From positions 1 through 64,000 of IMG/VR virus record IMGVR_UViG_3300036715_002842: a stretch of DNA of 64,000 nt; one strand, written 5' to 3'. The notes under the pieces are model-generated. The model was not told the origin of the DNA. It searched no databases and worked only from the letters and a program-made list of their open reading frames with translations. The stretch comes from a virus. A program made the position numbers and the translations under genes. Below, in pieces: positions 29,401-52,815 of this stretch (the first letter of the stretch is position 1; every line of letters starts with the position of its first letter).

Positions 29401-31453
29401 TTACGTAAGCGTCCAGGGCGCCAGTGTGAACGATACCAGAGAAATAAGGGCTATCTGTAGGCGCCTTCGCATTGAAAGTCGTCCAATCTGCTGAGAGAAG
29501 GTAACCGGCAACAAGTTCTGTTGCCGCGGGCATCGAAATGACTGGGGTATTGCCACCTGTCGATTGTACTGGGGATGTAGCTGTGACGGATGTAACTGTG
29601 CCACCGGAGTTTGGTGGGGTTGCGAACGTACCATCTGCGCGGAGGAAGTCTGTGGTGTTGGAAACAACCCCAGGTACCAAGCCCTTTGAAGTTCCAAAGA
29701 CCGGCAACAGTGCTGCAACCTGAGCGGCAGAAAGTGCTTCAACGTTCCCAGTTCCCGCAGTAGTTCTTGCGAGGAAGGTTCCAGATGCTATCTGTGCGAG
29801 GTTGCTGAGAATAACTTTGTTGGTTCCGATGGTTGTTGCATTACCGACCGAGGTAACATCCCCGGTCAGATTGGCGTTGGTCACCACCGTCGTAGCGTTT
29901 CCAACCGAGGTAACATCCCCGGTCAGATTGGCGTTGGTCACCACCGTCGTAGCGTTTCCAACCGAGGTCACCATGCCAGTCAGGTTTGCGTTGGTCACTA
30001 CGGTTGCTGCGAACGTACCAGTTCCAGAACCGGTAACTCCACCTGTCAGCGTGATGGTCTGATCACCAGTGTTCGTTCCAGATACGGATCCACTTGCAGG
30101 AACTGTCAGCGTTGCAGAAGCAGTACCACCACCGATGGAGAAGCCATTCGCGAGGGAATTGAAAGCCAGTCCATTGATTGAAGCAGCTATTGCATTGCCC
30201 AGGTTTGGTGTAACAAGTACCGGAGAATTAAGATTCGCCTTCAGATTTAGTGCTGTCTGGGTGGCAGTTGAAATTGGCTTGTTCAGGTCCGAGGTGTCAT
30301 CCACATTCCCCAGACCCACGCTAGCAGCAGTAATCGTTGGAGTGCTGATAACTCCACTTGCATCGATTGAAATGTTTGTTCCCTGCTTTACCCCACCCAG
30401 AACTGTTGCAGAAGCAACTGGCAGGGTATAGTTATTTGCACCCGCTGCGATACCATCCAGCTTCGCAGCGTAGGTGGAAGTCATATAGCCATTGACCGAA
30501 GCGGTTGCCGCGGCCATGGAAATGACTGGAGCCGAACCGCCGCTTGAATCTACCGGCGCGGTTGCTGTCACACCAGTTACGTAGACCGTTGTGTCTAAGG
30601 ACCATGTATCGACGGCAGTCTTTTTCAAAAGACCGGAAGTACCTGCTAGAGCTGCAATCGAAGTGAGATCCGCATCTAGCGGTTGTGCGTCCGTGATTCC
30701 GTAACCGGACAGGGAAGTTGGATTGGTTCCTGCTGTTACTCTTCCCTTTGTATCAACAGTTACGGACTTGTAGGTTCCGGCGGTTACTACGTTTGGAAGC
30801 GAGAGAGTGATTGCAGTTGTACCTGATCCAGTAACGTCTCCTGTTACAGTGATAGTCTGATTACCTGTGATGTAGCCACTGGGGTTGGTGCTATTGTAAG
30901 GAGTGAAGCCCAGTGCGTTAGTGACATCAGTTGACAGAAGGGTCACAGCACCGGAACGGGTATTGAAGGAATCTACTTTGGAACCTACGATCGATGCTGC
31001 TGGGGTATTGACCCACGCCAGACCAGTCCACTGAAGCACATCTGTATTGCCCTTAGTACCCACATTCACATTCGAAAGGTTCTCAAGGATGTGGGTGTGG
31101 GTGAGTGCCGCTGCGTCTGTGATTCCATACCCTGCGAGTGTAGTGGGATTGGTTCCACCGGTTACCCGACCTTTACTATCCACAGTTACAGACTTATACG
31201 TACCAGCGGTTACCCCAGATGCTGAAAGGGTAAGAGCCACGCTGGAGGATCCAGAACCCGTAACATCCCCAGTGTAGGTGAGAACTGGAATCCCACCGAT
31301 AACAGCGACGGCACTTCCAGATCCATTCTTGTAATAAAGGTCCCCACCAGGTCCAAAGGAAAAGAGAGACTCATTTGGATAGCTGGACAGATCTGGAAAT
31401 TTAGGGCCGAGTTGGAGGTACTTGGGTCCACGTAGTGGGGCAACGAGTTTCAT
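26429..31453 (-). CDS. long tail fibre protein
   Basis: VTAGTYKSVTVDSKGRVT, LAGYGITDA, DADLTSIAAL repeats typical of phage fibres. Confidence 0.85.
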   Translation of the reverse strand: MKLVAPLRGPKYLQLGPKFPDLSSYPNESLFSFGPGGDLYYKNGSGSAVAVIGGIPVLTYTGDVTGSGSSSVALTLSASGVTAGTYKSVTVDSKGRVTGGTNPTTLAGYGITDAAALTHTHILENLSNVNVGTKGNTDVLQWTGLAWVNTPAASIVGSKVDSFNTRSGAVTLLSTDVTNALGFTPYNSTNPSGYITGNQTITVTGDVTGSGTTAITLSLPNVVTAGTYKSVTVDTKGRVTAGTNPTSLSGYGITDAQPLDADLTSIAALAGTSGLLKKTAVDTWSLDTTVYVTGVTATAPVDSSGGSAPVISMAAATASVNGYMTSTYAAKLDGIAAGANNYTLPVASATVLGGVKQGTNISIDASGVISTPTITAASVGLGNVDDTSDLNKPISTATQTALNLKANLNSPVLVTPNLGNAIAASINGLAFNSLANGFSIGGGTASATLTVPASGSVSGTNTGDQTITLTGGVTGSGTGTFAATVVTNANLTGMVTSVGNATTVVTNANLTGDVTSVGNATTVVTNANLTGDVTSVGNATTIGTNKVILSNLAQIASGTFLARTTAGTGNVEALSAAQVAALLPVFGTSKGLVPGVVSNTTDFLRADGTFATPPNSGGTVTSVTATSPVQSTGGNTPVISMPAATELVAGYLLSADWTTFNAKAPTDSPYFSGIVHTGALDAYVNTGTLDLGTNWASIVNLGTAATTQTVNIGTGAGVTTINIGGAGDTVNISGTLVYNNVTNMTVTDKLITLNKGGAAASGDSAGIEIEEGGSITGYAKIGNTRSSWSFLAPGKLGTILLTPSATAFSSEVISTATAARQFTLPDASGTFAMVSDLTAKEPTITGGTSAQYWNGLKAWTDFNTSVRGATLTGLVAGANTPIAATDSVLTAFQNVQAQLNNKQVSGSYQALDGDLTAIANLAGTSGFLKKTAADTWALDTTTYSTTNGTVTTLSVVSANGFGGSVANAGTTPAITLTTSISGMLKGSGSALVAATAGVDYSAGTSALGTGILKSTTTTGALTIAVAADFPILNQSTTGNAATVTNGVYTTSTNVVTNAMSAQMAANTLKGNNTGLTANAADLTVAQIKTLLAYVPSDIGAPTTTGTGASGNWGISITGSAASATNATNVGVTNDTTTATAFSLVMVDGSTGNLAPKVSASRLYFYPATGTLVALAFSGSGASLTNIPNGALTNSSVTVGSTAIALGATSTTLAGLTSVTSTTFVGALTGNATTATTATNITGGAAGSIPYQTGSGATTMLATGSGVLVGGATPSYSTAPTLTGTNFTGIPESGVSNLVTDLAAKAAVGQTFYLGTTQIAINRVSGSIALTGITSIDGNAATVTTNANLTGMVTSVGNATTVVTNANLTGDVTSVGNATTLAATTVTGKVLTNYTLGTATAVAATDSILTAFGKLQAQVTAAPGTVTTLSVATANGFAGSVASATSSPVITLSTSISGLLKGNGTAISAATAADYVAPGTAPTLTGTNFTSIPNGALSNSSVTIGSTAVALGATTTTLAGLTSVTATTFTGVLSGNASTATTAGTVTTAAQPAITSVGTLTTLNVDFANIDTYTLTSTATTAGQQIASIPQATFRSAEFQIQAVDATGGKYQTTKILAVHNGSTSADYTEFGSVQIGGQVGAFSVVADGTNMKLLVTPTSANSSVFKVAVTAITI
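29847..30000. repeat. 57-bp (19-aa) tandem repeat x3 in fibre gene
   Basis: Units start at 29847, 29904 and 29961, encoding GNATTVVTNANLTGDVTSV; related copies at about 27320-27440. Confidence 0.85.
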
Positions 31454-32051: not shown

Positions 32052-32126
32052 TGGTGCCCCCGGTGGGGTTCGAACCCACGACCTGAAGATTATGAGCCAT
32101 CTGCTCTGCCGCTGAGCTACAGGGGT
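32052..32126 (-). tRNA. tRNA-Ile2/Met (CAT)
   Basis: Cloverleaf, loop CTCATAA, CCA end; A1:C72 mismatch. Confidence 0.85.
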
Positions 32127-32168
32127 ATTGGTATATTGGTTTGACTTGAGGAAAGATGGATTTCGGAA

Positions 32169-32252
32169 TGGTACCCCTTCTCGGACTCGAACCGAGACGC
32201 TCGAAAGCATAGGACCTAAACCTATTGACTGGACCAATTCGTCTAAAGGGGC
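32169..32252 (-). tRNA. tRNA-Leu (TAG)
   Basis: ATAGG-TTTAGGT-CCTAT, long V arm, CCA. Confidence 0.9.
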
Positions 32253-32515
32253 ATTTGATCTTCTGTCCTTACTATTGTGGAACCCGCAACCGGGTTTGAA
32301 CCTTACCACACGCGGATATCAGTTCCGCCACGCTCGCATTGGTTGATGAATTAGGCGGATTCACCACTGGTCGGTTTTCCCTCCCCATTAAGACCAGTGC
32401 GCACCAGCCTTAACTACGGTCGACCTTTACGGTTCTCTGGGGCTAAGCCACTTGAATCCGATAGGTGGTACCCGTTCTCGGAAATGACTTAACGATACGA
32501 AGAGCCGTCAAGAAT

Positions 32516-32591
32516 TGGAGCCCACAACCGGGTTCGAACCGATGACCTCCTGATTACAAAGCAGGTGCTCTACCAACTGAGCTATGCAGGC
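32516..32591 (-). tRNA. tRNA-Thr (TGT)
   Basis: Loop TTTGTAA, GGTTCGAACCC T arm, CCA. Confidence 0.85.
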
Positions 32592-32610
32592 AAAGGTGTC
32601 GGACTGAAAC

Positions 32611-33048
32611 TTGAAGGGCCATCCGACTGCCACTCAAAGGTGGGTGCATATATCGCTAGGCCGAAGGTATTTTGGATGCGGTAGATCTAAGAGATCCGAA
32701 GTCCTTGACAGTTTTGGAAAGAAGGTTCTTCTTGACTCGACTTACGAATTGGAGGTTTCGGAACTTTTGAATCAGCTTGGAATTCGTTGGATTAGACCCA
32801 AACCATTGAGTTGGTATTTGGAGGGCAAGCAGCACCTATACCACCCAGATTTCTTTTTAACGGATTTCAATCTCTATCTGGATCCGAAGAACGACTATCT
32901 AGCTCGAATTGATGTAGGGAAAATTTCCCTAGTAAGTTGGCAGAACGCAGTTGTAATTCGAATTCTAACCAAGAAGCAAATTACACTTGAGTATCTGAAA
33001 GGATTGGTAGCCCCGGAGAATTTTGAAATCTCGACCTACCGCGTGTAA
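32611..33048 (+). CDS. PD-(D/E)XK / TnsA-like free-standing endonuclease (possibly truncated)
   Basis: DSTYE...YHPDFFL...YLDPKND; antisense to the tRNA cluster. Confidence 0.65.
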   Translation: MKGHPTATQRWVHISLGRRYFGCGRSKRSEVLDSFGKKVLLDSTYELEVSELLNQLGIRWIRPKPLSWYLEGKQHLYHPDFFLTDFNLYLDPKNDYLARIDVGKISLVSWQNAVVIRILTKKQITLEYLKGLVAPENFEISTYRV

Positions 33049-33079
33049 GGCGATTGCTCTACCTCTGAGCTACAGGGCT
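33005..33079 (-). tRNA. tRNA-Val (TAC)
   Basis: ATCGC-CTTACAC-GCGGT, CCA. Confidence 0.85.
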
Positions 33080-33735
33080 AAGGTCGGGGATTCTTCAGCG
33101 GCGCCACCTAGGAGATCCCCTACAATTGCCGCCTGCTGGGGACTAGCATTGCTGCCCCACCCTCACCACCAGGTCTACCGAGTTAGGGCCTGATCCTGGA
33201 TTAAGATCCGGCCCCCTTGACCGGTGCGCACAACTGATCTTGTTCGGGGAACTGGAGTCCCGGCCGGATGACAACTCCAACTCCCCTTCAACCACCGCCC
33301 TCGAGGGGTAACAGTGAACCGAAGTCCACAGTGGTCGATCTAGTTCGGGGACCCACCACCCGCGTGGTTGCAGGTCCCCTTCGGACGCCTGACGGCCAGT
33401 CCGATCTTTAAGATATTCGGGAGTTCACGCCTCACTCCCTAGCGTCCAAGACTTTGCGGCGAAGTGACAATCCTAAGATCGTCTCCGAAGTTGCAGAGCA
33501 TCTTCGTGTAGCGCGTGGATCCTTTTGTAACTTTGACAGTTTCCAACAACCTTTAGAGGGAAGTCTTTCACTATCCTGGAGATTGCGGGAGTAGGTGCTG
33601 TGTCGGGCACCACGACCTTCAGAAGCAAGAAGAGGCTTGAATGACCGTCCAAGTATCTCTCCACCCTCACACGCGGTAGGCGTGGGGCTCGTCCTTCTGT
33701 TCCAGACCGGTTTCTGGCTGTGTACCGGTAAATGC

Positions 33736-33810
33736 TGGTGGACCTGGAGGGAATTGAACCCCCGACATCTGCCTTGCAAAGGCAGCGTTCTCCCGCTGAA
33801 CTACAGGCCC
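33736..33810 (-). tRNA. tRNA-Ala (TGC)
   Basis: CTGCC-TTTGCAA-GGCAG, G3:U70, CCA. Confidence 0.92.
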
Positions 33811-33846
33811 GTGCTGTCAAACAACTTAATCTTTAACCTACTTTGT

Positions 33847-33921
33847 TGGTACTCCCAGTTGGAATCGAACCAACGTCTAGAGCTTAGAAGGCTCTTGCTA
33901 AATCCCCTCAGCTATGGGAGC
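33847..33921 (-). tRNA. tRNA-Arg (TCT)
   Basis: AGAGC-CTTCTAA-GCTCT, CCA. Confidence 0.92.
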
Positions 33922-33924
33922 GAA

Positions 33925-34007
33925 TGGAGGCCCGGTGGAGAGTCGAACTCCTAACCTTTCGGACGAGGGTTGCAATCTCGCGCCAGTCCACACCAGCTTC
34001 CCGAGCC
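33925..34007 (-). tRNA. tRNA-Cys (GCA), atypical D and V arms
   Basis: Loop TTGCAAC, U73, CCA; extra CC-GAAA-GG variable hairpin. Confidence 0.75.
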
Positions 34008-34025
34008 TAGGTCTTGCATCTTGAA

Positions 34026-34102
34026 TGGTAGCCCAGGTGGGAGTCGAACCCACAGAACCCAGATTTTGAATCTGGTACCTATACCAATTCGGTTACTGAG
34101 CC
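34026..34102 (-). tRNA. tRNA-Leu (CAA), short variable loop
   Basis: CCAGA-TTCAAAA-TCTGG, A73, CCA. Confidence 0.88.
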
Positions 34103-34295
34103 ATTGAGTACGTGGCGGACCCTTTCATAGTTTCCACCCTTTGGAGTCAATCCAACTTGTAGTAGGATTTGACGAATGTTTTTGCAAGTTTTAGACGCTT
34201 CTGAAATTTGCTCATCTGTTACTTTTGTCTTGCAGTTGATGTTTCTTCCTCGGTACGTTTCAGTTTGGCTATGACAGTTTGGACATAGAAGAGAA
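34103..34295 (-). pseudogene. HNH endonuclease remnant
   Basis: Start-less frame LLCPNCHSQTETYRGRN...IRQILLQVGLTPKGGNY. Confidence 0.65.
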
Positions 34296-34305
34296 TTTTA
34301 AGGAT

Positions 34306-34587
34306 TGGTGCGCCCGGCCGGAATCGAACCGGCACGCTCTTACGAACAACAGATTTTCATCCTACTTCATGTTGCCATGACCGTTTCCGTTGTAGGCTGG
34401 ACTATCCCTTGACCTTATCCGAGGACTTAGGCCCCCACCGTCTAGTCTCTACACCTTCCTATTTCTAGGCTTGGCTCGGGATTGTCCTAAGGAGTTTCCC
34501 CGAATTTGATGGGATTCACGCTGGAGGTTTCCGACCCAGGTGCTCAAATCATAAGTCTGTGGCGTCTACCAGTTCCGCCACGGGCGC
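34306..34587 (-). tRNA. tRNA-Leu (TAA) interrupted by group I intron
   Basis: Exons 34587-34553 and 34357-34306 splice to ACAGA-CTTAAAA-TCTGT with long V arm and CCA. Confidence 0.9.
34358..34552 (-). ncRNA. self-splicing group I intron (195 nt), trnL(UAA) type
   Basis: Inserted at U^AA; conserved core AAATTCGGGGAA, AATCCCGAGC, GTAGAGACTAGACGG, GATAGTCC; ends in G. Confidence 0.88.
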
Positions 34588-34716
34588 AAAAGTTAGGGCT
34601 CGCTACGACACTTCCCACCTATCGATGGATCAACATGCCACCGGGTCTTACGGCCACACCTAACACAACCTCCGATTTACCCAAGATAATCGGTTTAAAA
34701 TACTGCTTGGGGCAGT

Positions 34717-34804
34717 TGGAGCGGGAGATGGGACTTGAACCCACGATGGACTTTCGTCACGTCAGCTTGGAAGGCTGATGCCTTAACCACTAGGCTACAC
34801 CCGC
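34717..34804 (-). tRNA. tRNA-Gly (TCC) with long variable arm
   Basis: GCG...CGC-U73-CCA acceptor; TCAGC-CTTCCAA-GCTGA; variable region CGTGACGAAAGTCCATC. Confidence 0.85.
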
Positions 34805-34939
34805 TTTGGAGAAACCTGGAAAATTTCATCCAGATTTCAAGGTAGAAGGAAAATTTGTGGCAACGTGATGACATTCGCTACTACGTATCCCCAAGCCTAA
34901 CACTCTAGGTAGCTTGGTTTATGTCAAGAGGACTTTTAT

Positions 34940-35308
34940 TGGTGGAGGTGGGGGAAATCGAATCCCCGTCCGAAAAGCTTCAGAAGGTAATTCATTCACA
35001 GGCTTAGTTCGAATCTAGTGACCTCTGTGGAGGATCGAACAACTCCAATCGAGGACTTGTTCCTTTGTCTCAACTGGAAGCCAGGAACACTCTTCCAATC
35101 CAGTTTATCTCTTCACCTCAGCAGGACGAATCCACCCTCGGATCTGATGCAACTAGGCTACTAAACGATCACCTAGAGGTTGCTGCTTACGCAGCCTGGA
35201 GAAAACGATCGTTTTCGGCAGTTGTGTTTGTTGGGCTTTTTAGGAGGCCAGCCCACCTCCGCCTGCACTACACTCCGGATTAGCCATCCGTCGAAACCTG
35301 GCACCCCC
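34940..35308 (-). ncRNA. ssrA: tmRNA, tag (A)AENDRFLQAA
   Basis: GGGGGTG...TTCGAC 5' end, G3:U acceptor, GGGGATTCGATTTCCCCCACCTCCACCA 3' end; resume codon after ACAACT. Confidence 0.92.
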
Positions 35309-35441
35309 AAGAGTTGGATTGGCTTGTAGGACCAATCCTGAGAGATCGTTACATTTGGTTTGCACCTACTAACGATTCACACCTTAGCACCGGTTCACCT
35401 TCCACCGAAAGGTTCCCCAAGTTGCTTAGACCTGGGAATTG

Positions 35442-35512
35442 TAGGTCCAGAGGGTATCGAACCCTCTTCCTCGCCTTAAAAGGGCGATGCTTCACCTTAA
35501 AGCTTTGGACCC
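35442..35512 (-). tRNA. tRNA-Lys (TTT), CCA not encoded
   Basis: TCGCC-CTTTTAA-GGCGA; GAGGG-TTCGATA-CCCTC. Confidence 0.85.
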
Positions 35513-35605
35513 GTTTGATGGGGATAGGAGGCAATGACCCATTCGGAGCCGCCTACCGTTAACCCATGCTGGACCCCACGGTCAGACCAGCATGCCCAAG
35601 ATTCA

Positions 35606-35679
35606 GACCAAAGAGTGGGTTCGAACCACTGTCCTCCCCAGACGTGCTGGGCGCTCTGACCGGCTGAGCTACCTTGGTC
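35606..35679 (-). ncRNA. tRNA-like element with 5-nt anticodon loop
   Basis: Canonical D arm (TAGCTCAGCCGGTCAGAGC) and T arm (AGTGG-TTCGAAC-CCACT), but CCCAG-CACGT-CTGGG and no CCA. Confidence 0.6.
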
Positions 35680-35730
35680 CTTTCCAGCTAGTGCACTAGC
35701 GTCAACAAGCCCGGATGTGGGTCTAGAACT

Positions 35731-35938
35731 CCACGGGGCTTGCAGGGAACTGATTGGTGGTAGCCCGATCCTCTGCTACTGAGCAAGTTGACCGGCACCT
35801 CATCGGGATGACGACCAACTGGCACCGAAGTGCACCACGGGGCTTGCAGGGAACTGATTGGTGGTAGCCCGATCCTCTGCTACTGAGCAAGTTGACCGGC
35901 ACCTCATCGGGATGACGACCAACTGGCACCGAAGTGCA
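35731..35938. repeat. perfect 104-bp tandem duplication
   Basis: 35731-35834 identical to 35835-35938. Confidence 0.92.
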
Positions 35939-35946
35939 CCAAAGAA

Positions 35947-36084
35947 CTACTTCACTCCCTCCTTTCTCCGGAGCAGCTCGAACTTCGCTGCCGCGGCCAG
36001 AAGGGATCCTGACTGAACCACCGCCTGCAACTGCGAGACGGTCATCCTACGCACGCTCTCTGCGTGCTTGCTTGATTGTGCCAT
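35947..36084 (-). CDS. small hypothetical protein (45 aa)
   Basis: AAGGAGG RBS; MAQSSKHAESVRRMTVSQLQAVVQSGSLLAAAAKFELLRRKEGVK*. Confidence 0.55.
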   Translation of the reverse strand: MAQSSKHAESVRRMTVSQLQAVVQSGSLLAAAAKFELLRRKEGVK

Positions 36085-36524
36085 GGGGCACCTCCTTCCA
36101 ACAAGTTGTTGGAAGGTCTTACGTGTCTGCGTACCTCATCGTTGCTCCTTTTGGAAAAGTGGAAGGATCGGGTTCGGTGTTATTTCACCCTCCAGGTCGT
36201 GTAACGTCCTAGGGAAGTCCCACCCGATTTCTTGAAGATATTTGGTTGGGGATTGGTGGCCACCGCACCCCAACCTACCTGTCGGTCCTATTGCCGTGGA
36301 TCGTTCATTCCCAACCTCCACGAGGAGTAGGTCCTTTTCGTCCCTGTTGGCAGCGACCGGTCTGTGCCGGGCTCACCGCTAGTTCTGTGGAGTCAGGGCT
36401 CCAGACATCCCGAGGGGAATTTGCACGGGACGATCTTGTGTTACAGAAAGGTACGAGTAGGAGTTCGCAAAGCTCCATTCTCCACTCATTGCGGAGATCC
36501 TGCACTTGGAGGTGATACTCGTAA

Positions 36525-36601
36525 TGGTCGGCTATGAGTGATTCGAACACTCGACCTTCGCGACCCAAACGCGACGCGCTACCAGGCTGCGCTAATAGCC
36601 G
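36525..36601 (-). tRNA. tRNA-Pro (TGG)
   Basis: CGG...CCGA-CCA; TCGCG-TTTGGGT-CGCGA. Confidence 0.92.
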
Positions 36602-36798
36602 GGAGGACTCGGTTTTAGTGGAGTTGACTGGAACCCGACCCCGAGTCACCCAGTTGCGCTGCTCCGCTGGGATGCCGGAGGTATTCACCGCTTTCGCGGG
36701 GCGCTGGAGGTCCCCTCAGTCAGTGGGAACCGGGGTCTAACACCTGATGCGCTTTTCGCTCTTGGGCCGCTTTTCATGACCGTTCAGGCAGTTACCTT

Positions 36799-36872
36799 TG
36801 GTTAGGGTGGTAGGATTCGAACCTACGAGGGGAGCGTCAAAGACTCCTGGTTTACCGCTAGCCTACACCCCA
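36799..36872 (-). tRNA. tRNA-Gln (TTG)
   Basis: U1:A72; GGAGT-CTTTGAC-GCTCC; CCA. Confidence 0.88.
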
Positions 36873-46897: not shown

Positions 46898-47251
46898 AAG
46901 ATTTCTCTACCCCCTCTGGGCTATTTGCCCGGATAATTGAGTCCAAGATCCATCAAGGATGACTCGATGCTGGTCACCACCTTAGGCACTTTCAGAAACC
47001 CGTGTAAAATAACGGAGATTCGAGGTACCACGGGTCAAATGGTGGTTGGTATTCTATCCGTTAAGAGTATTACTTTCTACCATTTGAGGAAAGTTCTAAA
47101 GGGCAATTTTCTGGGTGACTTTGCATTTTCAAAGTTCCTCAAAAAATTGAGCCTTGATTTTTCTTCGAGACCCGGTAAATTAGTAGTATATGTTCCCCAG
47201 AGGCCCCGGCTCCCCCACCTTCTCTACTGCCCCACTTTCTAGAGGTGCTTA

Positions 47252-48343
47252 ATGCGCTTGCTGATGTTCCGGTCTCAACTCACACCTCAGGGGATAACAT
47301 TCGTACCTCGTGAGGGTGAGCCGGCGCGATATAGCATCTTCCAGGACATCCACGACTACATCAAGATGAGCACTGAGAGTCTTCTCCATCCTCAGGCGGC
47401 GGTCGATCTGGTCATGGACAGCATCGCTCTACGTATCCTGCACCTGCCTCAGGCTCCGGACCACAAGGAGATCTACAGCAGTCAGTGCACCATCCGTAAG
47501 ACCAATGCGGATACCGGGAACGAGTGGTATGAGAAGACCCGGGACTTCAAAAACAAGTTTATGTATTGCATCAACTTCAACCGTATATCTCGTGCAGCGG
47601 AAGAAGCGATTGACAATCCGAAGAAGACCCTCATCTCTATTGCCAGCTTCTGGGATGTTTCCGAATACGAACTGGAACAGATTCTGAACTGGTATTACGA
47701 AACCGGACAGCAGCTCTACGGTGCCAAGGACCAGCGCCCTGAGTGGTGGGGGCAGCGCATTGATGAGGTTGCCCGCTACAAGGCTCTGGAATTTGAGTTC
47801 GTCAAGCAGGTGAACAAGAAACTGGCTACCCCGGCCTTCAGCTACCTCGTGGACTTCTACGAGTCCAGAGAATCCATCGTCCAGGACTTGATGCGAGAAG
47901 CCTGGCGCGCAGTTCTGGATACTTCCCACAAGCCGGAGCTTGATACCCTTCGCATGGGTAAGACCTACATCAATACGGTCATCCATCACGTGGCCCAGAG
48001 CTACACCAAGCACCATGGGAAGCAGGCTTACAACAAGCAGAACGATACTTACGAGACCATCGAGTTCTCTCTTCTGAGTGAACCGGACATGGATGAGTCC
48101 AAGCACTTCTTCCTGGCCCACGAGGTAAGTGAGTATCACGAAATGGAAGTCTTCCATACCCTCGACAAGGTTCTGGCTGACAATGAGATGACCCTGGTGC
48201 GGGTCCTCACTGGTGATCTGGAGAGTCCGGAATTCGAGAGTTACGCCTCGGGAATGTCCAGTCGTAGGATTGCGGCCTTCACCTTCTTCAAGGTGGACGC
48301 TGAGAACCTGCGGGACAAGTTCGGATACCTGTTCCACAGCTAA
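47252..48343 (+). CDS. hypothetical protein, possibly divergent sigma-factor-like
   Basis: ESIVQDLMREAWRAV...KTYINTVI resembles sigma region 2; weak. Confidence 0.4.
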   Translation: MRLLMFRSQLTPQGITFVPREGEPARYSIFQDIHDYIKMSTESLLHPQAAVDLVMDSIALRILHLPQAPDHKEIYSSQCTIRKTNADTGNEWYEKTRDFKNKFMYCINFNRISRAAEEAIDNPKKTLISIASFWDVSEYELEQILNWYYETGQQLYGAKDQRPEWWGQRIDEVARYKALEFEFVKQVNKKLATPAFSYLVDFYESRESIVQDLMREAWRAVLDTSHKPELDTLRMGKTYINTVIHHVAQSYTKHHGKQAYNKQNDTYETIEFSLLSEPDMDESKHFFLAHEVSEYHEMEVFHTLDKVLADNEMTLVRVLTGDLESPEFESYASGMSSRRIAAFTFFKVDAENLRDKFGYLFHS

Positions 48344-48826: not shown

Positions 48827-49105
48827 CTAACTAGCGAGCGGCAGCTTTTCAATTTCTGCCATGAATGAAGGTGGGGTTGTGAAAGCTGCCGCTCGAGGTA
48901 TCTTAAAGTACGGATCGGTAAATCCGATGGCACCTTCAGAGATGGCATCCTTAATAAGGAACCGTGGAGTGTCCAGGATGACCAGAGTTTCGTTCTTCCA
49001 CTCTTCCGGATACTCTAGAACGAACTGAGCAATAGCGTGCCCAGCTTGAGACATCTTTTGTCCGAAAGAAAGTTTTTCGTCGATCAGAATGTAGAGCTTA
49101 GTCAT
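48827..49105 (-). CDS. PTH2-like peptidyl-tRNA hydrolase
   Basis: KLYILID..LS.GQKMSQAGHA...W...LVIL, resembling the PTH2 N-terminal motif. Confidence 0.7.
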   Translation of the reverse strand: MTKLYILIDEKLSFGQKMSQAGHAIAQFVLEYPEEWKNETLVILDTPRFLIKDAISEGAIGFTDPYFKIPRAAAFTTPPSFMAEIEKLPLAS

Positions 49106-49499: not shown

Positions 49500-49673
49500 T
49501 CAGATTGTGGGATGGTAATCCTTTCCAGCAATCTTTACCCAGTTTGACATTCCAATCAAGAGGTGACCGTGCTGAGAAGGGGAGAAGGGGACTAGCCCCT
49601 TCCCATCACAGTGCAGACTTGGCTTAGACGATTCGAAGACCGTCCGGCAACCAAGACAGATCCACTCTTTCAT
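49500..49673 (-). CDS. small zinc-ribbon-like protein (57 aa)
   Basis: TGATG coupling; MKEWICLGCRTVFESSKPSLHCDG... Confidence 0.5.
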   Translation of the reverse strand: MKEWICLGCRTVFESSKPSLHCDGKGLVPFSPSQHGHLLIGMSNWVKIAGKDYHPTI

Positions 49674-50119
49674 CACTTCCCCTCTTGCATGTCGAGGAGG
49701 ATCTGCGTACTCAGACCCTGCTGGAAGTCCAGAGTCTCCTTACGGAAACGCTTCTTCTCTTCCCAAGCGGCGATGTCCTCAGCAATCATTTCCTTCCATT
49801 CCGCGAGCTGGCGCTGAGAATAGTGGTCGGCTTGCTTGTGGAAGTAAGAACGGCTGGGATTCCGGTTGGGCTCGATCTGCTCGAGGGTACGTCCACGGAG
49901 AAGGCAGTAAGCGATGTGCTTCGCTCTCCAATTCTGATCGTCGCAGCTGTAGAAGTTCTCGGGCTTGATTGCCAGGAGCTTGGCGCGAAGTTCTTCCTGT
50001 TGCTCCCCGGGAATGGAAGGCTTGAAGGTGGCATCGTAACGCCGTTCCCAATGCCTGCAAGCCACTTCGTGCTTGAGCTCTGCCTTGATGGTTGCGATCA
50101 GTTCTTTGTAAGTGGTCAT
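49673..50119 (-). CDS. hypothetical protein, first gene of the amber-gated operon
   Basis: 148 aa; RAKHIAYCLLRGRTLEQIE; RBS lies inside a hairpin. Confidence 0.75.
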   Translation of the reverse strand: MTTYKELIATIKAELKHEVACRHWERRYDATFKPSIPGEQQEELRAKLLAIKPENFYSCDDQNWRAKHIAYCLLRGRTLEQIEPNRNPSRSYFHKQADHYSQRQLAEWKEMIAEDIAAWEEKKRFRKETLDFQQGLSTQILLDMQEGK

Positions 50120-50121
50120 TA

Positions 50122-50173
50122 GATTCTCCGAAATTTGAAAAGTTTGAGAAAAGGTTTTCGAATTTGGAGAATC
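50122..50173 (-). promoter_or_regulatory. RBS-sequestering hairpin
   Basis: GATTCTCC-AAATT-CGAAAA pairs with TTTTCA-AATTT-C-GGAGAATC, burying the GGAG of the gene starting at 50119. Confidence 0.75.
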
Positions 50174-50198
50174 ACTAAGGTGGGCGGTTCTACGTCAT
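50172..50198 (-). promoter_or_regulatory. amber minigene 2 (M-T-UAG-N-R-P-P-UAG-UGA)
   Basis: AAGGAG-6 nt-ATG ACG TAG AAC CGC CCA CCT TAG TGA. Confidence 0.7.
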
Positions 50199-50209
50199 CG
50201 TAGGCTCCT

Positions 50210-50329
50210 TTACGAACAGAAAAAACCCAACAGAGGCTGCTGGGCAGCTGATCCGTTGGGGAGGAAGTGTTCTTGCGAACACAGATTTTTGTGGTGTGGC
50301 AAAACTTTGGAGCCGCGAATCTACTTCAT
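50210..50329 (-). promoter_or_regulatory. amber minigene 1 / leader ORF (M-K-UAG, then 36 open codons to TAA)
   Basis: GAGGG RBS, ATG AAG TAG; frame stays open through the terminator to TAA 50212-50210. Confidence 0.65.
50220..50260 (-). terminator. intrinsic terminator/attenuator in leader
   Basis: CCCAACGGA..GCTGC-CCA-GCAGC..TCTGTTGGG-TTTTTT. Confidence 0.8.
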
Positions 50330-50342
50330 GGTCTTGTCCCTC

Positions 50343-50380
50343 AAATGGTTGGTACTACCCAAAATGGTTGGTACTACCCA
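50343..50380. repeat. 19-bp direct tandem repeat in leader
   Basis: AAATGGTTGGTACTACCCA x2. Confidence 0.85.
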
Positions 50381-50387
50381 AAGACTA

Positions 50388-50416
50388 ATTATAACCCCGG
50401 ATCTTTCGTTTGCCAA
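50388..50416 (-). promoter_or_regulatory. sigma70-like promoter of the amber-gated operon
   Basis: TTGGCA-17 nt-TATAAT. Confidence 0.75.
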
Positions 50417-50480
50417 GGTTTGACGGAAAAATTATTTTACCCTTGGCTTCATGGTTACATATCAGTGACGATCTTGATGG

Positions 50481-51518
50481 TCATGGCTGACTCCCAGAAG
50501 TAAGGACGTTTCGTTCCATGGGCTGACCGTGCATCCAGTGTTTCACGGTCTGGACATGGGAGGCCCGGACGAACTTCCCAACCTTGACCCGAAACTCAGA
50601 GAAGGGGAATGCCTCGGCCACCCGGACCACATAGCCCTCCTGGCGATCCCATTTGCGCTTGTCCCACAAGGCGCGGATGGCCTTTTCGTCATAGATTCCG
50701 TCGTAGAGTACGGGAACAGGAGTAATCCCCAACAGGGCAAACCATTCCAGCGTCTCGTCCCAGGGGAGGCAGATGTTCCGGTCATCCCAGATGGAGAACC
50801 CAAGCAGGTAGCTGGGAAGGCCGTCGTAGCCGATGGAATGCTTGGCGTAGAGGTTTTCGCCGCACACTCGCCATCCTTCCGGGATGTCCATACGGATCTG
50901 GGACCAGAATTGCTTGACCCAGTTCCGGCTGGGGTGACTGCGCCCATCCAGGCTCCGAGCGTGGATGTGATCCTGGTAGAGGGACGTGTTTTCTCCGTCC
51001 ATTTTCTCGGTAACGATCACCCGCTTCCCTGCGAGGGCTGCGGTGGAATCCATCATTCGGTCGTCGTCGTTCATTCCCTCCGACCATGGCAGATGGTGGG
51101 TCCTGGGATACTTGACCCAGTGGGTGAATAGGCTAAGAACGCCGCCAATGGCGAGCACCTTCTGAACGCTCTCGTCATGGAACAACTCCCCCTTGAGGCG
51201 CTGGCCATTGGGGAGGATGGGATTCCCCCACTTGTCATAAGGCTGGTCCGCGTAGAGATGTGGTGGGAGCAAAGATTTGGTGATCCCGCAGGCGTTACGA
51301 ACATCCTCGGTGGAGATCTCTGTGGTTTCGCACCGCATGTGGTGATCGCCACAAACGGAAGCGCCGTTGTCGAGGTAGTAGCCTCCGTCCGGCCACAGTC
51401 TGCGTTCCAGGATGTGGTGGGCGTCCGCAGCAGGTTCCCCGCAGAAGACACAGCGGCCCTTGGCGCGAGCAAACACGGCCTCGCGGAAAGCGTCTCTGGT
51501 TAGCAGCAGGGCGTTCAT
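50481..51518 (-). CDS. HNH domain fused to RNA ligase
   Basis: N-terminal CVFC...DAHHI...C..HH; KYPRTHHL, VTEKMDGEN, CGENL, EGYVVR. Confidence 0.85.
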   Translation of the reverse strand: MNALLLTRDAFREAVFARAKGRCVFCGEPAADAHHILERRLWPDGGYYLDNGASVCGDHHMRCETTEISTEDVRNACGITKSLLPPHLYADQPYDKWGNPILPNGQRLKGELFHDESVQKVLAIGGVLSLFTHWVKYPRTHHLPWSEGMNDDDRMMDSTAALAGKRVIVTEKMDGENTSLYQDHIHARSLDGRSHPSRNWVKQFWSQIRMDIPEGWRVCGENLYAKHSIGYDGLPSYLLGFSIWDDRNICLPWDETLEWFALLGITPVPVLYDGIYDEKAIRALWDKRKWDRQEGYVVRVAEAFPFSEFRVKVGKFVRASHVQTVKHWMHGQPMERNVLTSGSQP

Positions 51519-51639
51519 TGGGTGGTTCCTTTCGAGTTGGATTCATTACATTTCAGACGCTACCGTATGGCGTACCTGTGGGTGTATCCCCTTGAATTCT
51601 GGCTCGTAGTGTTTCAAAGCGGTTTCACTCTTAAAAAAG

Positions 51640-51711
51640 TCCCCACGGTGGTAGTCGAAACCACGACACAGTGTTTTAGAAGCACCTGCTCTACCGTTGA
51701 GCTACGTGGGG
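51640..51711 (-). tRNA. amber suppressor tRNA (anticodon CTA)
   Basis: CCCCACG/CGTGGGG acceptor, TAGCTCAACGGTAGAGC D arm, GGTGC-TTCTAAA-ACACT, GTGGT-TTCGACT-ACCAC; CCA not encoded. Confidence 0.8.
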
Positions 51712-51825: not shown

Positions 51826-52815
51826 CTATTCATCTGAGTGCGCCAGGGCAGCGAACAGGCACCCCTTCGCGATAGCCTTCAGAGGATCCTCAGCACGAAC
51901 TACCTTGCCAATCTTGATGGGGAGGTTCTGCGCCTTGAGAGCCTCTTCGAACAGTTCGATGAACCCGCCGGGAAGAGAGGTTCCACCTGCGACTGCGATC
52001 TTGGGCGGCTTCTGGAAGTCTGGTAGCTTCGCCATGCCAAGGAGTTTGTCCTTGATTTGCTTGGCTACGTACTCCAACATCGCCTTGTAGTAGTACGAAA
52101 TGGCTTCCTCGGTCTGATCCTTGGGCTTGCGGAGATCAATGATCCCCTCCTTTGCGAGCATAGCCTTGACCGTGGAGATACCCAGAGAGGTGGAAACGTT
52201 CTTGTCAATGTAGTCACCGGAACGGGCTACGGAGAAGTTGAAGGCTTCCACACTCAATTGTGCGCAGCAGACATTGCACATGCCAGCGCCCCACGAAACA
52301 CCAAAGCCAGAAAGATTGTCCTCGAGGAGTTCACTGTAAATGACCGACAGACCTTCATTGAGTGGTACTGGAGTGTAACCCATGTCGGTTAGGATCTTGT
52401 TGAACACATTCGAGTGGTAAACTGCATTGAACTCCTGATCGACTGGATCCCCTGGGACGGAGTAGACCACCTTTTCTTTCTTGGTGGCAGGAGCCCCAAG
52501 GGACTCTTTGATGATCGCCTGGATGATTGGCAGCGCCTTAATCTCATGGGGATTGAGAACACCTTGCGACATAGGTCGCTTGGGCTCACTGTTGAAAGCG
52601 CTAGCGAGCTCCAGTGCCTGCTGACCTAAAGCAGAAATTTCCCCCTCAAGTTCCACGTAAGGTGCACCCACCTTCTTGAGCATCGATTTTACGAAGGGGG
52701 ATTTCTCTACTGGTACGAAGATATTGCGGAAAGCTTTGTACTCGAAGCTCTCCCCATCTGCACCAACCCTCGCAGCTACGATATTTCCAGTTCCCAAATC
52801 TAGTCCACAGGGCAT
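51826..52815 (-). CDS. actin-like ATPase (MreB/ParM/FtsA superfamily)
   Basis: Phosphate-1 GLDLGTGN, LNEG, SWGAG, adenosine AGGTS, AIAKG. Confidence 0.85.
   Translation of the reverse strand: MPCGLDLGTGNIVAARVGADGESFEYKAFRNIFVPVEKSPFVKSMLKKVGAPYVELEGEISALGQQALELASAFNSEPKRPMSQGVLNPHEIKALPIIQAIIKESLGAPATKKEKVVYSVPGDPVDQEFNAVYHSNVFNKILTDMGYTPVPLNEGLSVIYSELLEDNLSGFGVSWGAGMCNVCCAQLSVEAFNFSVARSGDYIDKNVSTSLGISTVKAMLAKEGIIDLRKPKDQTEEAISYYYKAMLEYVAKQIKDKLLGMAKLPDFQKPPKIAVAGGTSLPGGFIELFEEALKAQNLPIKIGKVVRAEDPLKAIAKGCLFAALAHSDE

What the first reader, a model, noticed from the sequence alone, without database searches (positions are those of the whole stretch)
50122..50205. Lock 2: Met-Thr-amber-Asn-Arg-Pro-Pro-amber-opal minigene abutting an RBS-sequestering hairpin
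The second TAG-TGA runs into the 5' arm (GATTCTCC) of a stem of about 19 bp that buries the GGAG of the 50119 gene. A ribosome stopping at the first UAG is about 16 nt short of the stem. One that reads through reaches Pro-Pro-stop, a known slow-termination context, on top of the anti-SD arm and should open it.
Basis: partly seen in the sequence, partly recalled or inferred. Interest (0 to 1): 0.82.

Follow-up and report, generated by a model that had tools for sequence, protein, structure and literature searches.

The report
Amber minigene before an RBS-hiding hairpin
In a large phage that carries its own amber-suppressor tRNA, an unknown operon sits behind a real RNA hairpin that hides its ribosome-binding site, preceded by a non-random two-codon AUG-ACG-UAG minigene; the layout fits switching by read-through of UAG, but nothing yet shows that it works that way.

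Summary
On the minus strand, AAGGAG-N6-AUG ACG UAG AAC CGC CCA CCU UAG UGA (50210-50172) runs into an 18-bp hairpin (50173-50122). The hairpin has a free energy of -15.2 kcal/mol (z -3.9), and its 3' arm contains the GGAG of the 148-aa gene that starts at 50119.

The minigene is not chance. It and a twin, AUG AAG UAG at 50329, are the only two in this leader. None of 40,000 shuffles of the leader gave two.

A ribosome on AUG or on the first UAG leaves the cost of opening the RBS at about 12-14 kcal/mol. A ribosome at the second UAG or at UGA lowers it to about 3-8 kcal/mol.

A tRNA(CUA) gene lies 1.5 kb upstream, and the genome is not recoded.

Three things weaken the case:
- RBS burial of this size is not rare here; this gene ranks 8th to 11th of 99.
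- The Pro-Pro codons double as an anti-SD-like stretch.
- No DNA of relatives could be obtained, so there is no conservation or covariation test.

Best reading, at about 35%: unmasking of the RBS that depends on UAG read-through. Coupling without read-through and simple damping of translation remain live alternatives. The same scan noted this stretch before, on this genome only.

The parts
51639..51711 (-). tRNA with anticodon CUA (amber suppressor). It has its own promoter-like site, TTGACA-16-TATTCT, at 51758-51731.
   Evidence: ARAGORN. Rfam tRNA model, 57.7 bits. Promoter scan. The anticodon loop UUCUAAA was read.
50388..50416 (-). Promoter-like site TTGGCA-17-TATAAT (11 of 12 matches), the likely start of the leader transcript.
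   Evidence: It is the only exact match to this pattern in the 105-kb record.
50343..50380 (-). Two perfect tandem 19-nt repeats directly after the promoter. Their role is unknown; an operator or an RNA-binding site are possibilities.
   Evidence: They are unique in the record.
50321..50342 (-). Minigene 1: GAGGGA-N7-AUG AAG UAG. If the UAG is read through, the frame stays open for 36 more codons, crosses the terminator and ends at UAA 50215-50213.
50219..50260 (-). Intrinsic terminator: stem 50260-50226 followed by a run of six U.
   Evidence: Free energy -21.3 kcal/mol, z -3.9. Also found by the terminator scan.
50190..50210 (-). Minigene 2: SD AAGGAG (50210-50205), 6-nt spacer, AUG 50198-50196, ACG, first UAG 50192-50190. 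The stretch CUACG-AUGA-CGUAG is itself a 5-bp palindrome with the AUG in its loop.
50172..50189 (-). Read-through tail AAC CGC CCA CCU, then UAG (50177-50175) and UGA (50174-50172). The G and A of UGA are the first two bases of the anti-SD arm.
50122..50173 (-). 18-bp hairpin. The 5' arm GAUUCUCC pairs with GGAGAAUC, which holds the SD GGAG (50129-50126).
   Evidence: Removing the 8-nt 5' arm drops the fold from -15.2 to -2.7 kcal/mol.
50119..50175 (-). 18-codon frame that starts at the GUG embedded in UAG-UGA, spans the whole hairpin and ends at a UAA that overlaps the gene's AUG (UAAUG). It is part of a 68-codon open frame with no other canonical start.
49673..50119 (-). 148-aa gene (P0001), the gene that is locked. 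It is an all-helical orphan with a conserved MTTYKEL start.
   Evidence: AlphaFold model with pLDDT 91.5. No fold match in PDB or BFVD. No Pfam, PHROG or NCBIfam match.
48827..49105 (-). 92-aa PTH2-like protein, the last recognisable gene of the operon.
   Evidence: Atlas search: feature score 0.91 (208 of 256 features shared) and structure TM 0.82 to phage PTH2-like clusters. No match in Pfam or in PDB sequences.

Best explanation
This is a translational lock in the leader of a small phage operon.

Shown in silico:
- An 18-bp hairpin pairs the GGAG of the 148-aa gene with an upstream anti-SD arm. Opening the RBS costs about 13 kcal/mol.
- The only strong ribosome entry site upstream is a two-codon minigene, AAGGAG-N6-AUG-ACG-UAG.

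Inferred:
- Ribosomes that end at the first UAG stop 16 nt short of the stem and leave the lock closed.
- Some ribosomes pass that UAG. This could happen because the phage tRNA(CUA) decodes it, or because termination by release factor 1 (RF1) fails for some other reason.
- Those ribosomes travel four more sense codons to Pro-Pro-UAG-UGA at the foot of the stem.
- There they occupy the anti-SD arm, probably for a long time, because peptidyl-Pro terminates slowly.
- That frees the GGAG for a second ribosome.
- Alternatively, the same ribosome may restart at the GUG embedded in UAG-UGA and translate through the stem to the UAAUG junction.

The lock would then tie expression of the 148-aa gene and the genes after it, including a PTH2-like protein, to UAG read-through capacity in the infected cell.
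For: - The hairpin is real and specific: -15.2 kcal/mol, z -3.9. It is kept in the fold of the whole 292-nt leader.
- Constrained folding gives these RBS-opening costs: 12.8 kcal/mol for free RNA; 12.3-13.7 with a ribosome on AUG or on the first UAG; 8.0, 4.2 and 3.2 at the second UAG for reaches of +11, +13 and +15; and 3.2-3.5 at UGA.
- The minigene has a consensus SD at ideal spacing.
- Two AUG-NNN-UAG minigenes lie in one 266-nt leader. None of 40,000 shuffles gave two.
- No other clear intergenic case was found in the record or in 54 related loci.
- Each minigene sits just upstream of a negative RNA element: the terminator and the RBS hairpin.
- A tRNA(CUA) gene with its own promoter lies 1.5 kb upstream on the same strand.
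- The genome is not recoded: 91% is coding under table 11, and TAG ends 26 of 99 genes. The suppressor therefore lacks an obvious decoding job.
- No promoter-like site lies between the terminator and the gene. Expression must therefore pass both elements.
- There is a precedent for a leader ORF whose stop-codon read-through by a tRNA is a regulatory input: PepNL (PMC11890864).
Against: - No DNA of relatives could be fetched, so neither the stem, the UAG codons nor their spacing could be tested for conservation or covariation.
- Predicted RBS burial of this size is fairly common in this genome; the gene ranks 8th to 11th of 99.
- Four stop-free codons after a UAG are expected by chance about 82% of the time.
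- CCA-CCU may exist only because CCUU pairs with the AAGG of the minigene's SD.
- The +4 base A after the gate UAGs is also the commonest context of ordinary TAG stops here, 13 of 26.
- TAG-ended genes show no sign of adaptation to suppression; their median extension is 14 codons.
- A second jumbo phage with a tRNA(CUA) near its RNA ligase has no intergenic amber minigene.
- Which amino acid the tRNA carries, and how active it is, are unknown.
Confidence: 0.35

Rival explanations
1. Coupling or standby without read-through. The minigene is a ribosome-loading site placed next to a closed RBS. Ribosomes that terminate at the first UAG stay on the RNA and drift about 15 nt to the GUG at 50175. 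Alternatively they wait as standby 30S subunits. They then translate the 18-codon frame through the stem and restart at the UAAUG junction. Expression is constitutive but set by the rate of minigene translation. The UAG and the nearby suppressor tRNA are coincidental.
For: - The GUG..UAA frame spans the hairpin exactly from foot to foot and ends in UAAUG on the gene's start. It lies in a 68-codon open frame.
- The minigene has a strong SD.
- The region between the terminator and the stem is only weakly structured.
- Reinitiation after short leader ORFs and standby sites are established (PMC4833913; the lateral-diffusion model for the MS2 lysis gene and the tisB standby site, from my own knowledge).
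Against: - The GUG has no SD.
- Both minigenes end in UAG. This is about 7% likely from the genome's stop-codon usage.
- This reading does not explain why the ORF is cut to two codons instead of running straight into the stem.
- Without an active helicase, a scanning ribosome is unlikely to enter a -15 kcal/mol stem.
Confidence: 0.2
2. Two unrelated elements. The hairpin is a fixed translational damper, an RNA-stability element, or a target for a trans-acting factor such as RNase III, a phage protein or a small RNA. The minigenes serve another purpose. They could trap or test tRNA-Lys and tRNA-Thr as peptidyl-tRNA, in the manner of lambda bar minigenes and in step with the PTH2-like gene. They could also protect the leader RNA.
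For: - RBS burial is common in this genome.
- A PTH2-like protein is encoded in the same operon. Its homologue P0011 and the P0001 homologue P0008 both come from a contig whose longest length is listed as 13,448 bp, so they are probably on the same contig.
- Two-codon minigenes with strong SDs are known to release peptidyl-tRNA (PMC2490762 and PMC8012679, listed; details from my own knowledge).
- An 18-bp stem with internal defects resembles phage RNase III sites (from my own knowledge, not tested).
Against: - This reading does not explain why each minigene sits directly before a negative element.
- It does not explain why the second pair of stops lands on the anti-SD arm.
- The bar minigenes use AUA and UAA or UGA, not UAG.
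- No partner RNA or protein has been identified.
Confidence: 0.3
3. Chance, or decay of a former gene start. The SD-AUG-stop strings are remnants or accidents and the hairpin is incidental.
For: - The finding came from an open-ended reading of 64 kb, so many patterns could have been noticed.
- Several parts of the story, such as four open codons and the A after UAG, are uninformative.
Against: - None of 40,000 shuffles gave two minigenes, and P(>=1) = 0.0026.
- The hairpin has z -3.9.
- No other clear intergenic case was found in about 60 kb of intergenic DNA.
Confidence: 0.1
4. A temporal switch of the phage T4 kind, as in genes e, soc and I-TevI. Transcripts from the upstream promoter carry the closed hairpin and stay silent. 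A later promoter inside or after the 5' arm makes transcripts that lack the anti-SD arm and are translated.
For: - Deleting the 5' arm abolishes the structure, from -15.2 to -2.7 kcal/mol.
- The T4 precedent is from my own knowledge.
Against: - No promoter-like site lies on the minus strand between 50219 and 50120.
- No recurrent phage-specific upstream motif was found, and none lies in the hairpin.
Confidence: 0.05

Closest known systems
Leader-ORF translational attenuation (ermCL-ermC, secM-secA, mifM-yidC2)
   Same: A short upstream ORF has its own RBS. The downstream SD is paired in a hairpin. A ribosome held on the 5' side of the hairpin frees the SD.
   Different: Here the ORF is only two codons unless a UAG is read through. 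The proposed signal is read-through of a stop codon, not a drug or a force acting on a nascent peptide. No arrest peptide long enough to fill the exit tunnel is present.
PepNL leader of E. coli pepN (PMC11890864)
   Same: It is a natural leader ORF in which decoding of its stop codon by a tRNA (Trp-tRNA at UGA) changes where ribosomes stall, and so changes regulation.
   Different: PepNL is a 14-aa arrest peptide that blocks RF2. Read-through relieves the arrest, and the tRNA is a normal cellular one. Here the codon is UAG, the tRNA would be a dedicated phage suppressor, and read-through would switch the gene on.
Phage lambda bar minigenes (two-codon AUG-AUA-stop)
   Same: It is a phage-encoded SD-AUG-one codon-stop unit. 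Such units favour peptidyl-tRNA drop-off and interact genetically with peptidyl-tRNA hydrolase. A PTH2-like gene lies in this operon.
   Different: The bar minigenes use AUA with UAA or UGA. They are not known to gate a downstream hairpin, and no suppressor tRNA is involved.
mgtQ-mgtB intergenic small ORF in Salmonella (PMC8092293)
   Same: Translation of a small ORF remodels a stem-loop that sequesters the RBS of the next gene.
   Different: By the paper's title and section headings, mgtQ acts through acidic residues that abort translation and through alternative stem-loops. No stop-codon read-through is involved.
Stop-codon recoding in phages with suppressor tRNAs (10.1101/2021.08.26.457843; PMC9523058)
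   Same: A phage-encoded tRNA(CUA) is thought to time gene expression.
   Different: In those phages TAG lies inside many late genes. Here no long gene holds an internal TAG, and TAG ends 26 of 99 genes. The only candidate targets are leader minigenes.
pyrBI-type coupled-translation attenuation (relevant to the twin gate upstream)
   Same: A leader ORF runs across an intrinsic terminator, so a closely following ribosome could prevent termination.
   Different: Here the ORF crosses the terminator only if UAG at codon 3 is read through. This was not tested.

Membership tests
Leader-ORF translational attenuation (ermC / secM type) | An upstream short ORF with a functional-looking RBS. | tested here: met
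   AAGGAG, 6-nt spacer, AUG. P = 0.0026 per leader by shuffling.
Leader-ORF translational attenuation (ermC / secM type) | The SD of the downstream gene is paired in a stable local hairpin. | tested here: met
   -15.2 kcal/mol, z -3.9. P(unpaired) of the GGAG is about 0.
Leader-ORF translational attenuation (ermC / secM type) | The ribosome pause site overlaps the sequestering arm, so that pausing frees the SD. | tested here: inconclusive
   Met only for ribosomes that have read through the first UAG: opening cost 3-8 kcal/mol against about 13. Not met for normal termination.
Leader-ORF translational attenuation (ermC / secM type) | A demonstrated stalling signal and inducer. | not testable with these tools
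   Pro-Pro-stop is present. Whether ribosomes stall there needs toeprinting.
Leader-ORF translational attenuation (ermC / secM type) | Conservation or covariation of the leader ORF and the stem among homologues. | not testable with these tools
   Protein homologues exist, but their contigs could not be fetched.
Lambda bar-type two-codon minigene | SD, AUG, one sense codon, stop. | tested here: met
Lambda bar-type two-codon minigene | Peptidyl-tRNA drop-off, or toxicity when Pth is limiting. | not testable with these tools
   This needs expression in a pth(ts) host.
Stop-codon-recoded phage (TAG read as sense) | In-frame TAG codons inside conserved or long genes; low coding density under table 11. 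| tested here: not met
   91% coding under table 11. ORFs of 1,065-1,674 aa are intact. TAG ends 26 of 99 genes.
Stop-codon-recoded phage (TAG read as sense) | A phage-encoded suppressor tRNA. | tested here: met
   tRNA(CUA) at 51639-51711.
T4-type RBS hairpin bypassed by an internal promoter | A promoter inside or downstream of the 5' arm. | tested here: not met
   No sigma-70-like site on the minus strand between 50219 and 50120. No recurrent motif. Unknown phage promoter types are not covered.
Programmed bypass or +1 frameshift at a stop (T4 gene 60, prfB) | Matched take-off and landing codons, or a slippery codon before the stop that can re-pair in the new frame. | tested here: not met
   By reading: ACG and CCU have no in-frame landing match after the stem, and AAG cannot re-pair on AGU.
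Rfam cis-regulatory families | A match to a curated covariance model. | tested here: not met
   No match at gathering scores. Only noise at E > 2 in 50050-50520.

The most novel reading that the evidence does not exclude
Minigene 2 and its hairpin are the second half of a double gate; the first half is minigene 1 and the terminator. The gate reads UAG read-through capacity, set by the phage's own tRNA(CUA) or by failing RF1 termination, and turns on an operon that ends in a PTH2-like hydrolase. This would be a natural use of a suppressor tRNA as a regulatory signal in a phage that is not recoded.
Probability: 0.3. Interest if true: 0.85.

Novelty: new variant of a known kind. Interest (0 to 1): 0.55.

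Why it matters
Many large phages carry suppressor tRNAs without using an altered genetic code, and the purpose of these tRNAs is an open question. A leader whose stop codon is the sensor would give the suppressor a concrete regulatory job and a small, directly testable target.

It would also extend leader-peptide attenuation to a new input: competition between a release factor and a tRNA at a stop codon. The only natural precedent found is PepNL. Synthetic biologists have built the equivalent by design (PMC7969014).

If the alternative readings are right, the element is an ordinary RBS-masking hairpin with an upstream loading ORF, which is of local interest only.

Tried and rejected
**Comparative DNA.** None could be obtained, so there is no covariation test.
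- The P0001 family was not found in viral contigs, metagenome contigs or genome contigs, nor among GenBank phages.
- The hairpin pattern and the minigene pattern had no match in IMG/VR.
- The PTH2-like protein had no relative in IMG/VR.
- The 54 loci found through RNA ligase homologues do not carry P0001. Neither do the five whole related records that were searched.

**Recurrence in another phage with a suppressor tRNA.** In G006, all three GGAG-N4-9-ATG-NNN-TAG matches lie inside genes. The control pattern gave 6 matches.

**Rfam.** Nothing was found.

**Internal promoter or phage motif in the hairpin.** None was found.

**Evidence that the genome tolerates suppression.** Extensions after TAG stops are not shorter than after other stops. 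TAG followed by A is the normal stop context here, so it says nothing.

**Function of the 148-aa protein.** The model is confident and all-helical, but it matches no fold or family.

**Bypass or frameshift readings.** Rejected by inspecting the codons.

**A DNA-level role for the palindrome.** The arms are unique in the window. No partner site was found.

Full report
**Context**

The window is the first 64 kb of a 105,575-bp virus record. The record looks like a jumbo phage. It holds giant ORFs, 13 tRNA genes, a tmRNA and a group I intron. Its RNA ligase is 55-69% identical to those of many 100-580-kb IMG/VR phages. At DNA level the ligase gene is 66-68% identical to those of Caulobacter phages CcrSC and CcrBL9.

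The genome uses the standard code. Coding density under table 11 is 91%. ORFs of 1,065-1,674 aa are intact, and TAG ends 26 of 99 called genes. It nevertheless encodes a well-formed tRNA with anticodon CUA at 51711-51639 on the minus strand, behind its own promoter-like site.

**Anatomy on the minus strand**

The order is as follows:
- tRNA(CUA).
- An RNA ligase gene (51518-50481; PF09414, E = 3e-32).
- A near-consensus promoter, TTGGCA-17-TATAAT (50416-50388).
- Two perfect 19-nt tandem repeats (50380-50343).
- Minigene 1, GAGGGA-N7-AUG AAG UAG (AUG at 50329).
- A strong intrinsic terminator (50260-50219; -21.3 kcal/mol, z -3.9).
- Minigene 2, AAGGAG-N6-AUG ACG UAG (AUG at 50198), followed in frame by AAC CGC CCA CCU UAG UGA.
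- An 18-bp hairpin (50173-50122).
- The AUG of a 148-aa gene at 50119.

Downstream genes follow at short spacing. They encode 58-aa, 115-aa and 92-aa proteins. The 92-aa protein looks like PTH2 in the protein atlas (feature score 0.91, structure TM 0.82), but not in Pfam or in PDB sequence searches.

No promoter-like site lies between the terminator and the gene.

**Checking the observation**

The hairpin has 8 + 5 + 5 pairs. It folds at -15.2 kcal/mol against -6.4 +/- 2.3 for shuffles. It persists in the fold of the whole leader. It collapses to -2.7 kcal/mol when the 8-nt anti-SD arm is removed.

The GGAG (50129-50126) pairs with CUCC (50169-50166).

**Is it more than chance?**

The hairpin alone is not remarkable. 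This gene ranks 8th of 99 for SD pairing probability. It ranks 11th of 99 for RBS-opening cost, at 13.1 kcal/mol against a median of 7.6.

The minigenes are remarkable.
- SD-AUG-(0-3 codons)-stop strings occur 22 times on both strands of the record, and almost all are inside genes.
- In about 60 kb of intergenic DNA from this record plus 54 related loci, only five two-codon cases were flagged as intergenic. Minigene 1 was masked there by a shadow ORF.
- In 40,000 dinucleotide-preserving shuffles of the 266-nt leader, 0.26% had one such minigene and none had two.
- Both minigenes have exactly one sense codon, and both end in UAG.

**Testing the geometry**

I folded the leader with a ribosome footprint forced single-stranded. 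The cost of opening the SD-to-AUG region was:

| Ribosome position | Opening cost (kcal/mol) |
|---|---|
| None (free RNA) | 12.8 |
| On the minigene AUG or the first UAG | 12.3-13.7 |
| P site on CCU, A site on the second UAG; reach +11 / +13 / +15 | 8.0 / 4.2 / 3.2 |
| Second UAG also read through; A site on UGA | 3.2-3.5 |

So normal termination leaves the lock closed, and read-through would remove about 5-10 kcal/mol of the barrier. It does not show that read-through happens.

**Points that weaken the reading**

- Four stop-free codons after a UAG are expected by chance about 82% of the time.
- CCA-CCU can be explained another way. In the minimum-energy fold, CCUU pairs with the AAGG of the minigene's own SD, and CUACG-AUGA-CGUAG forms a small hairpin with the AUG in its loop. 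Pro-Pro may therefore be a by-product of RNA pairing.
- The base after both gate UAGs is A, but A also follows 13 of 26 ordinary TAG stops.
- TAG-ended genes are not followed by unusually close back-up stops.
- A second phage with a tRNA(CUA) 2.8 kb from its RNA ligase (L041, G006) has no intergenic amber minigene.

**An extra feature**

The frame that starts at the GUG inside UAG-UGA (50175-50173) runs 18 codons across the entire hairpin. It ends at a UAA that overlaps the gene's AUG (UAAUG). This frame is open for 68 codons back to a UGA that overlaps minigene 1.

This allows a relay: terminate at UAG-UGA, restart at GUG, unwind the stem, and couple at UAAUG. It equally allows a route without read-through, in which ribosomes released at the first UAG drift 15 nt to the GUG.

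**Comparative evidence**

The 148-aa protein has eight homologues at 95% to about 41% identity. All have the invariant start MTTYKE.

One homologue (P0008) and a homologue of the PTH2-like protein (P0011) each come from a contig listed at 13,448 bp. The operon is therefore probably conserved.

Their DNA could not be reached. No conservation or covariation test of the lock was possible. This is the main gap.

**The gene under control**

P0001 folds confidently (pLDDT 91.5) into six helices. It matches nothing in PDB, BFVD, Pfam, PHROGs or NCBIfam. Its function is unknown.

**Verdict**

The hairpin and the minigene are real. The minigene pair is clearly non-random.

The most likely single mechanism is RBS unmasking that depends on leader translation and is triggered by passage of the first UAG (about 35%). 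It is a variant of ermC/secM-type attenuation. The nearest natural precedent for a stop-codon read-through input is PepNL (PMC11890864).

The alternatives together outweigh it:
- Coupling or standby without read-through: about 20%.
- Unrelated roles for the hairpin and the minigenes, including a bar-like link to peptidyl-tRNA: about 30%.
- Chance: about 10%.
- A T4-like internal promoter: about 5%.

The same scan had already noted this stretch, the twin gate and the suppressor tRNA on this genome. Those notes are unchecked AI readings and count only as leads.

Noticed in passing
window 50343-50380 (-): Two perfect tandem copies of a 19-nt unit (UGGGUAGUACCAACCAUUU) lie directly after the TTGGCA-17-TATAAT promoter. 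Each holds the near-palindrome GGTAGTACC. The unit is unique in the 105-kb record. It could be an operator or an RNA-protein binding site, which would add a third layer of control on this leader.
   Followed up: partly
window 50119-50328 (-): A 68-codon open frame with no AUG runs from a UGA that overlaps minigene 1 to a UAA that overlaps the 148-aa gene's AUG. Its only canonical start is the GUG inside UAG-UGA at the hairpin foot. The chance of such an open frame is about 4% per frame.
   Followed up: partly
window 46937-48343 (+): A 101-aa ORF ends in TAG and is in frame, three codons later, with the ATG of the next gene (363 aa). Amber read-through would make a 468-aa fusion protein. This could be a second target of the suppressor tRNA, or the 1-in-3 chance of sharing a frame.
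   Followed up: no
window 48827-49105 (-): A 92-aa protein at the end of the operon resembles phage PTH2-like and DUF2000 proteins in the protein atlas (0.91; TM 0.82). It has no Pfam, NCBIfam or PDB sequence match. A 64%-identical homologue and a P0001 homologue each come from a contig listed at 13,448 bp, so they are probably on the same contig.
   Followed up: partly
window 51826-52815 (-): A 329-aa protein matches the actin-like Volactin family over its full length (PF25216, E = 2e-79). This is an actin-family cytoskeletal protein in a phage, just upstream of the tRNA(CUA).
   Followed up: no
window 32052-36872 (-): An array of 12 tRNA genes holds a tmRNA (34940-35308, tag AENDRFLQAA) and a group I intron hit (34377-34562).
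   Followed up: no
L041 6827-6901 (+), IMG/VR record of 305,833 bp: Another jumbo phage has a tRNA(CUA) 2.8 kb downstream of its RNA ligase homologue. In several related phages the ligase is flanked by tRNA arrays or a tmRNA (L001, L003, L004, L017, L029, L042, L043). This suggests a recurrent link between the RNA ligase and tRNA genes.
   Followed up: partly
window 3167, 26429-31453, 48392 and other gene starts: Several other genes have predicted RBS-opening costs of 15-22 kcal/mol, higher than the gene studied here. Some of these may be mis-called starts or terminators that overlap the SD.
   Followed up: no
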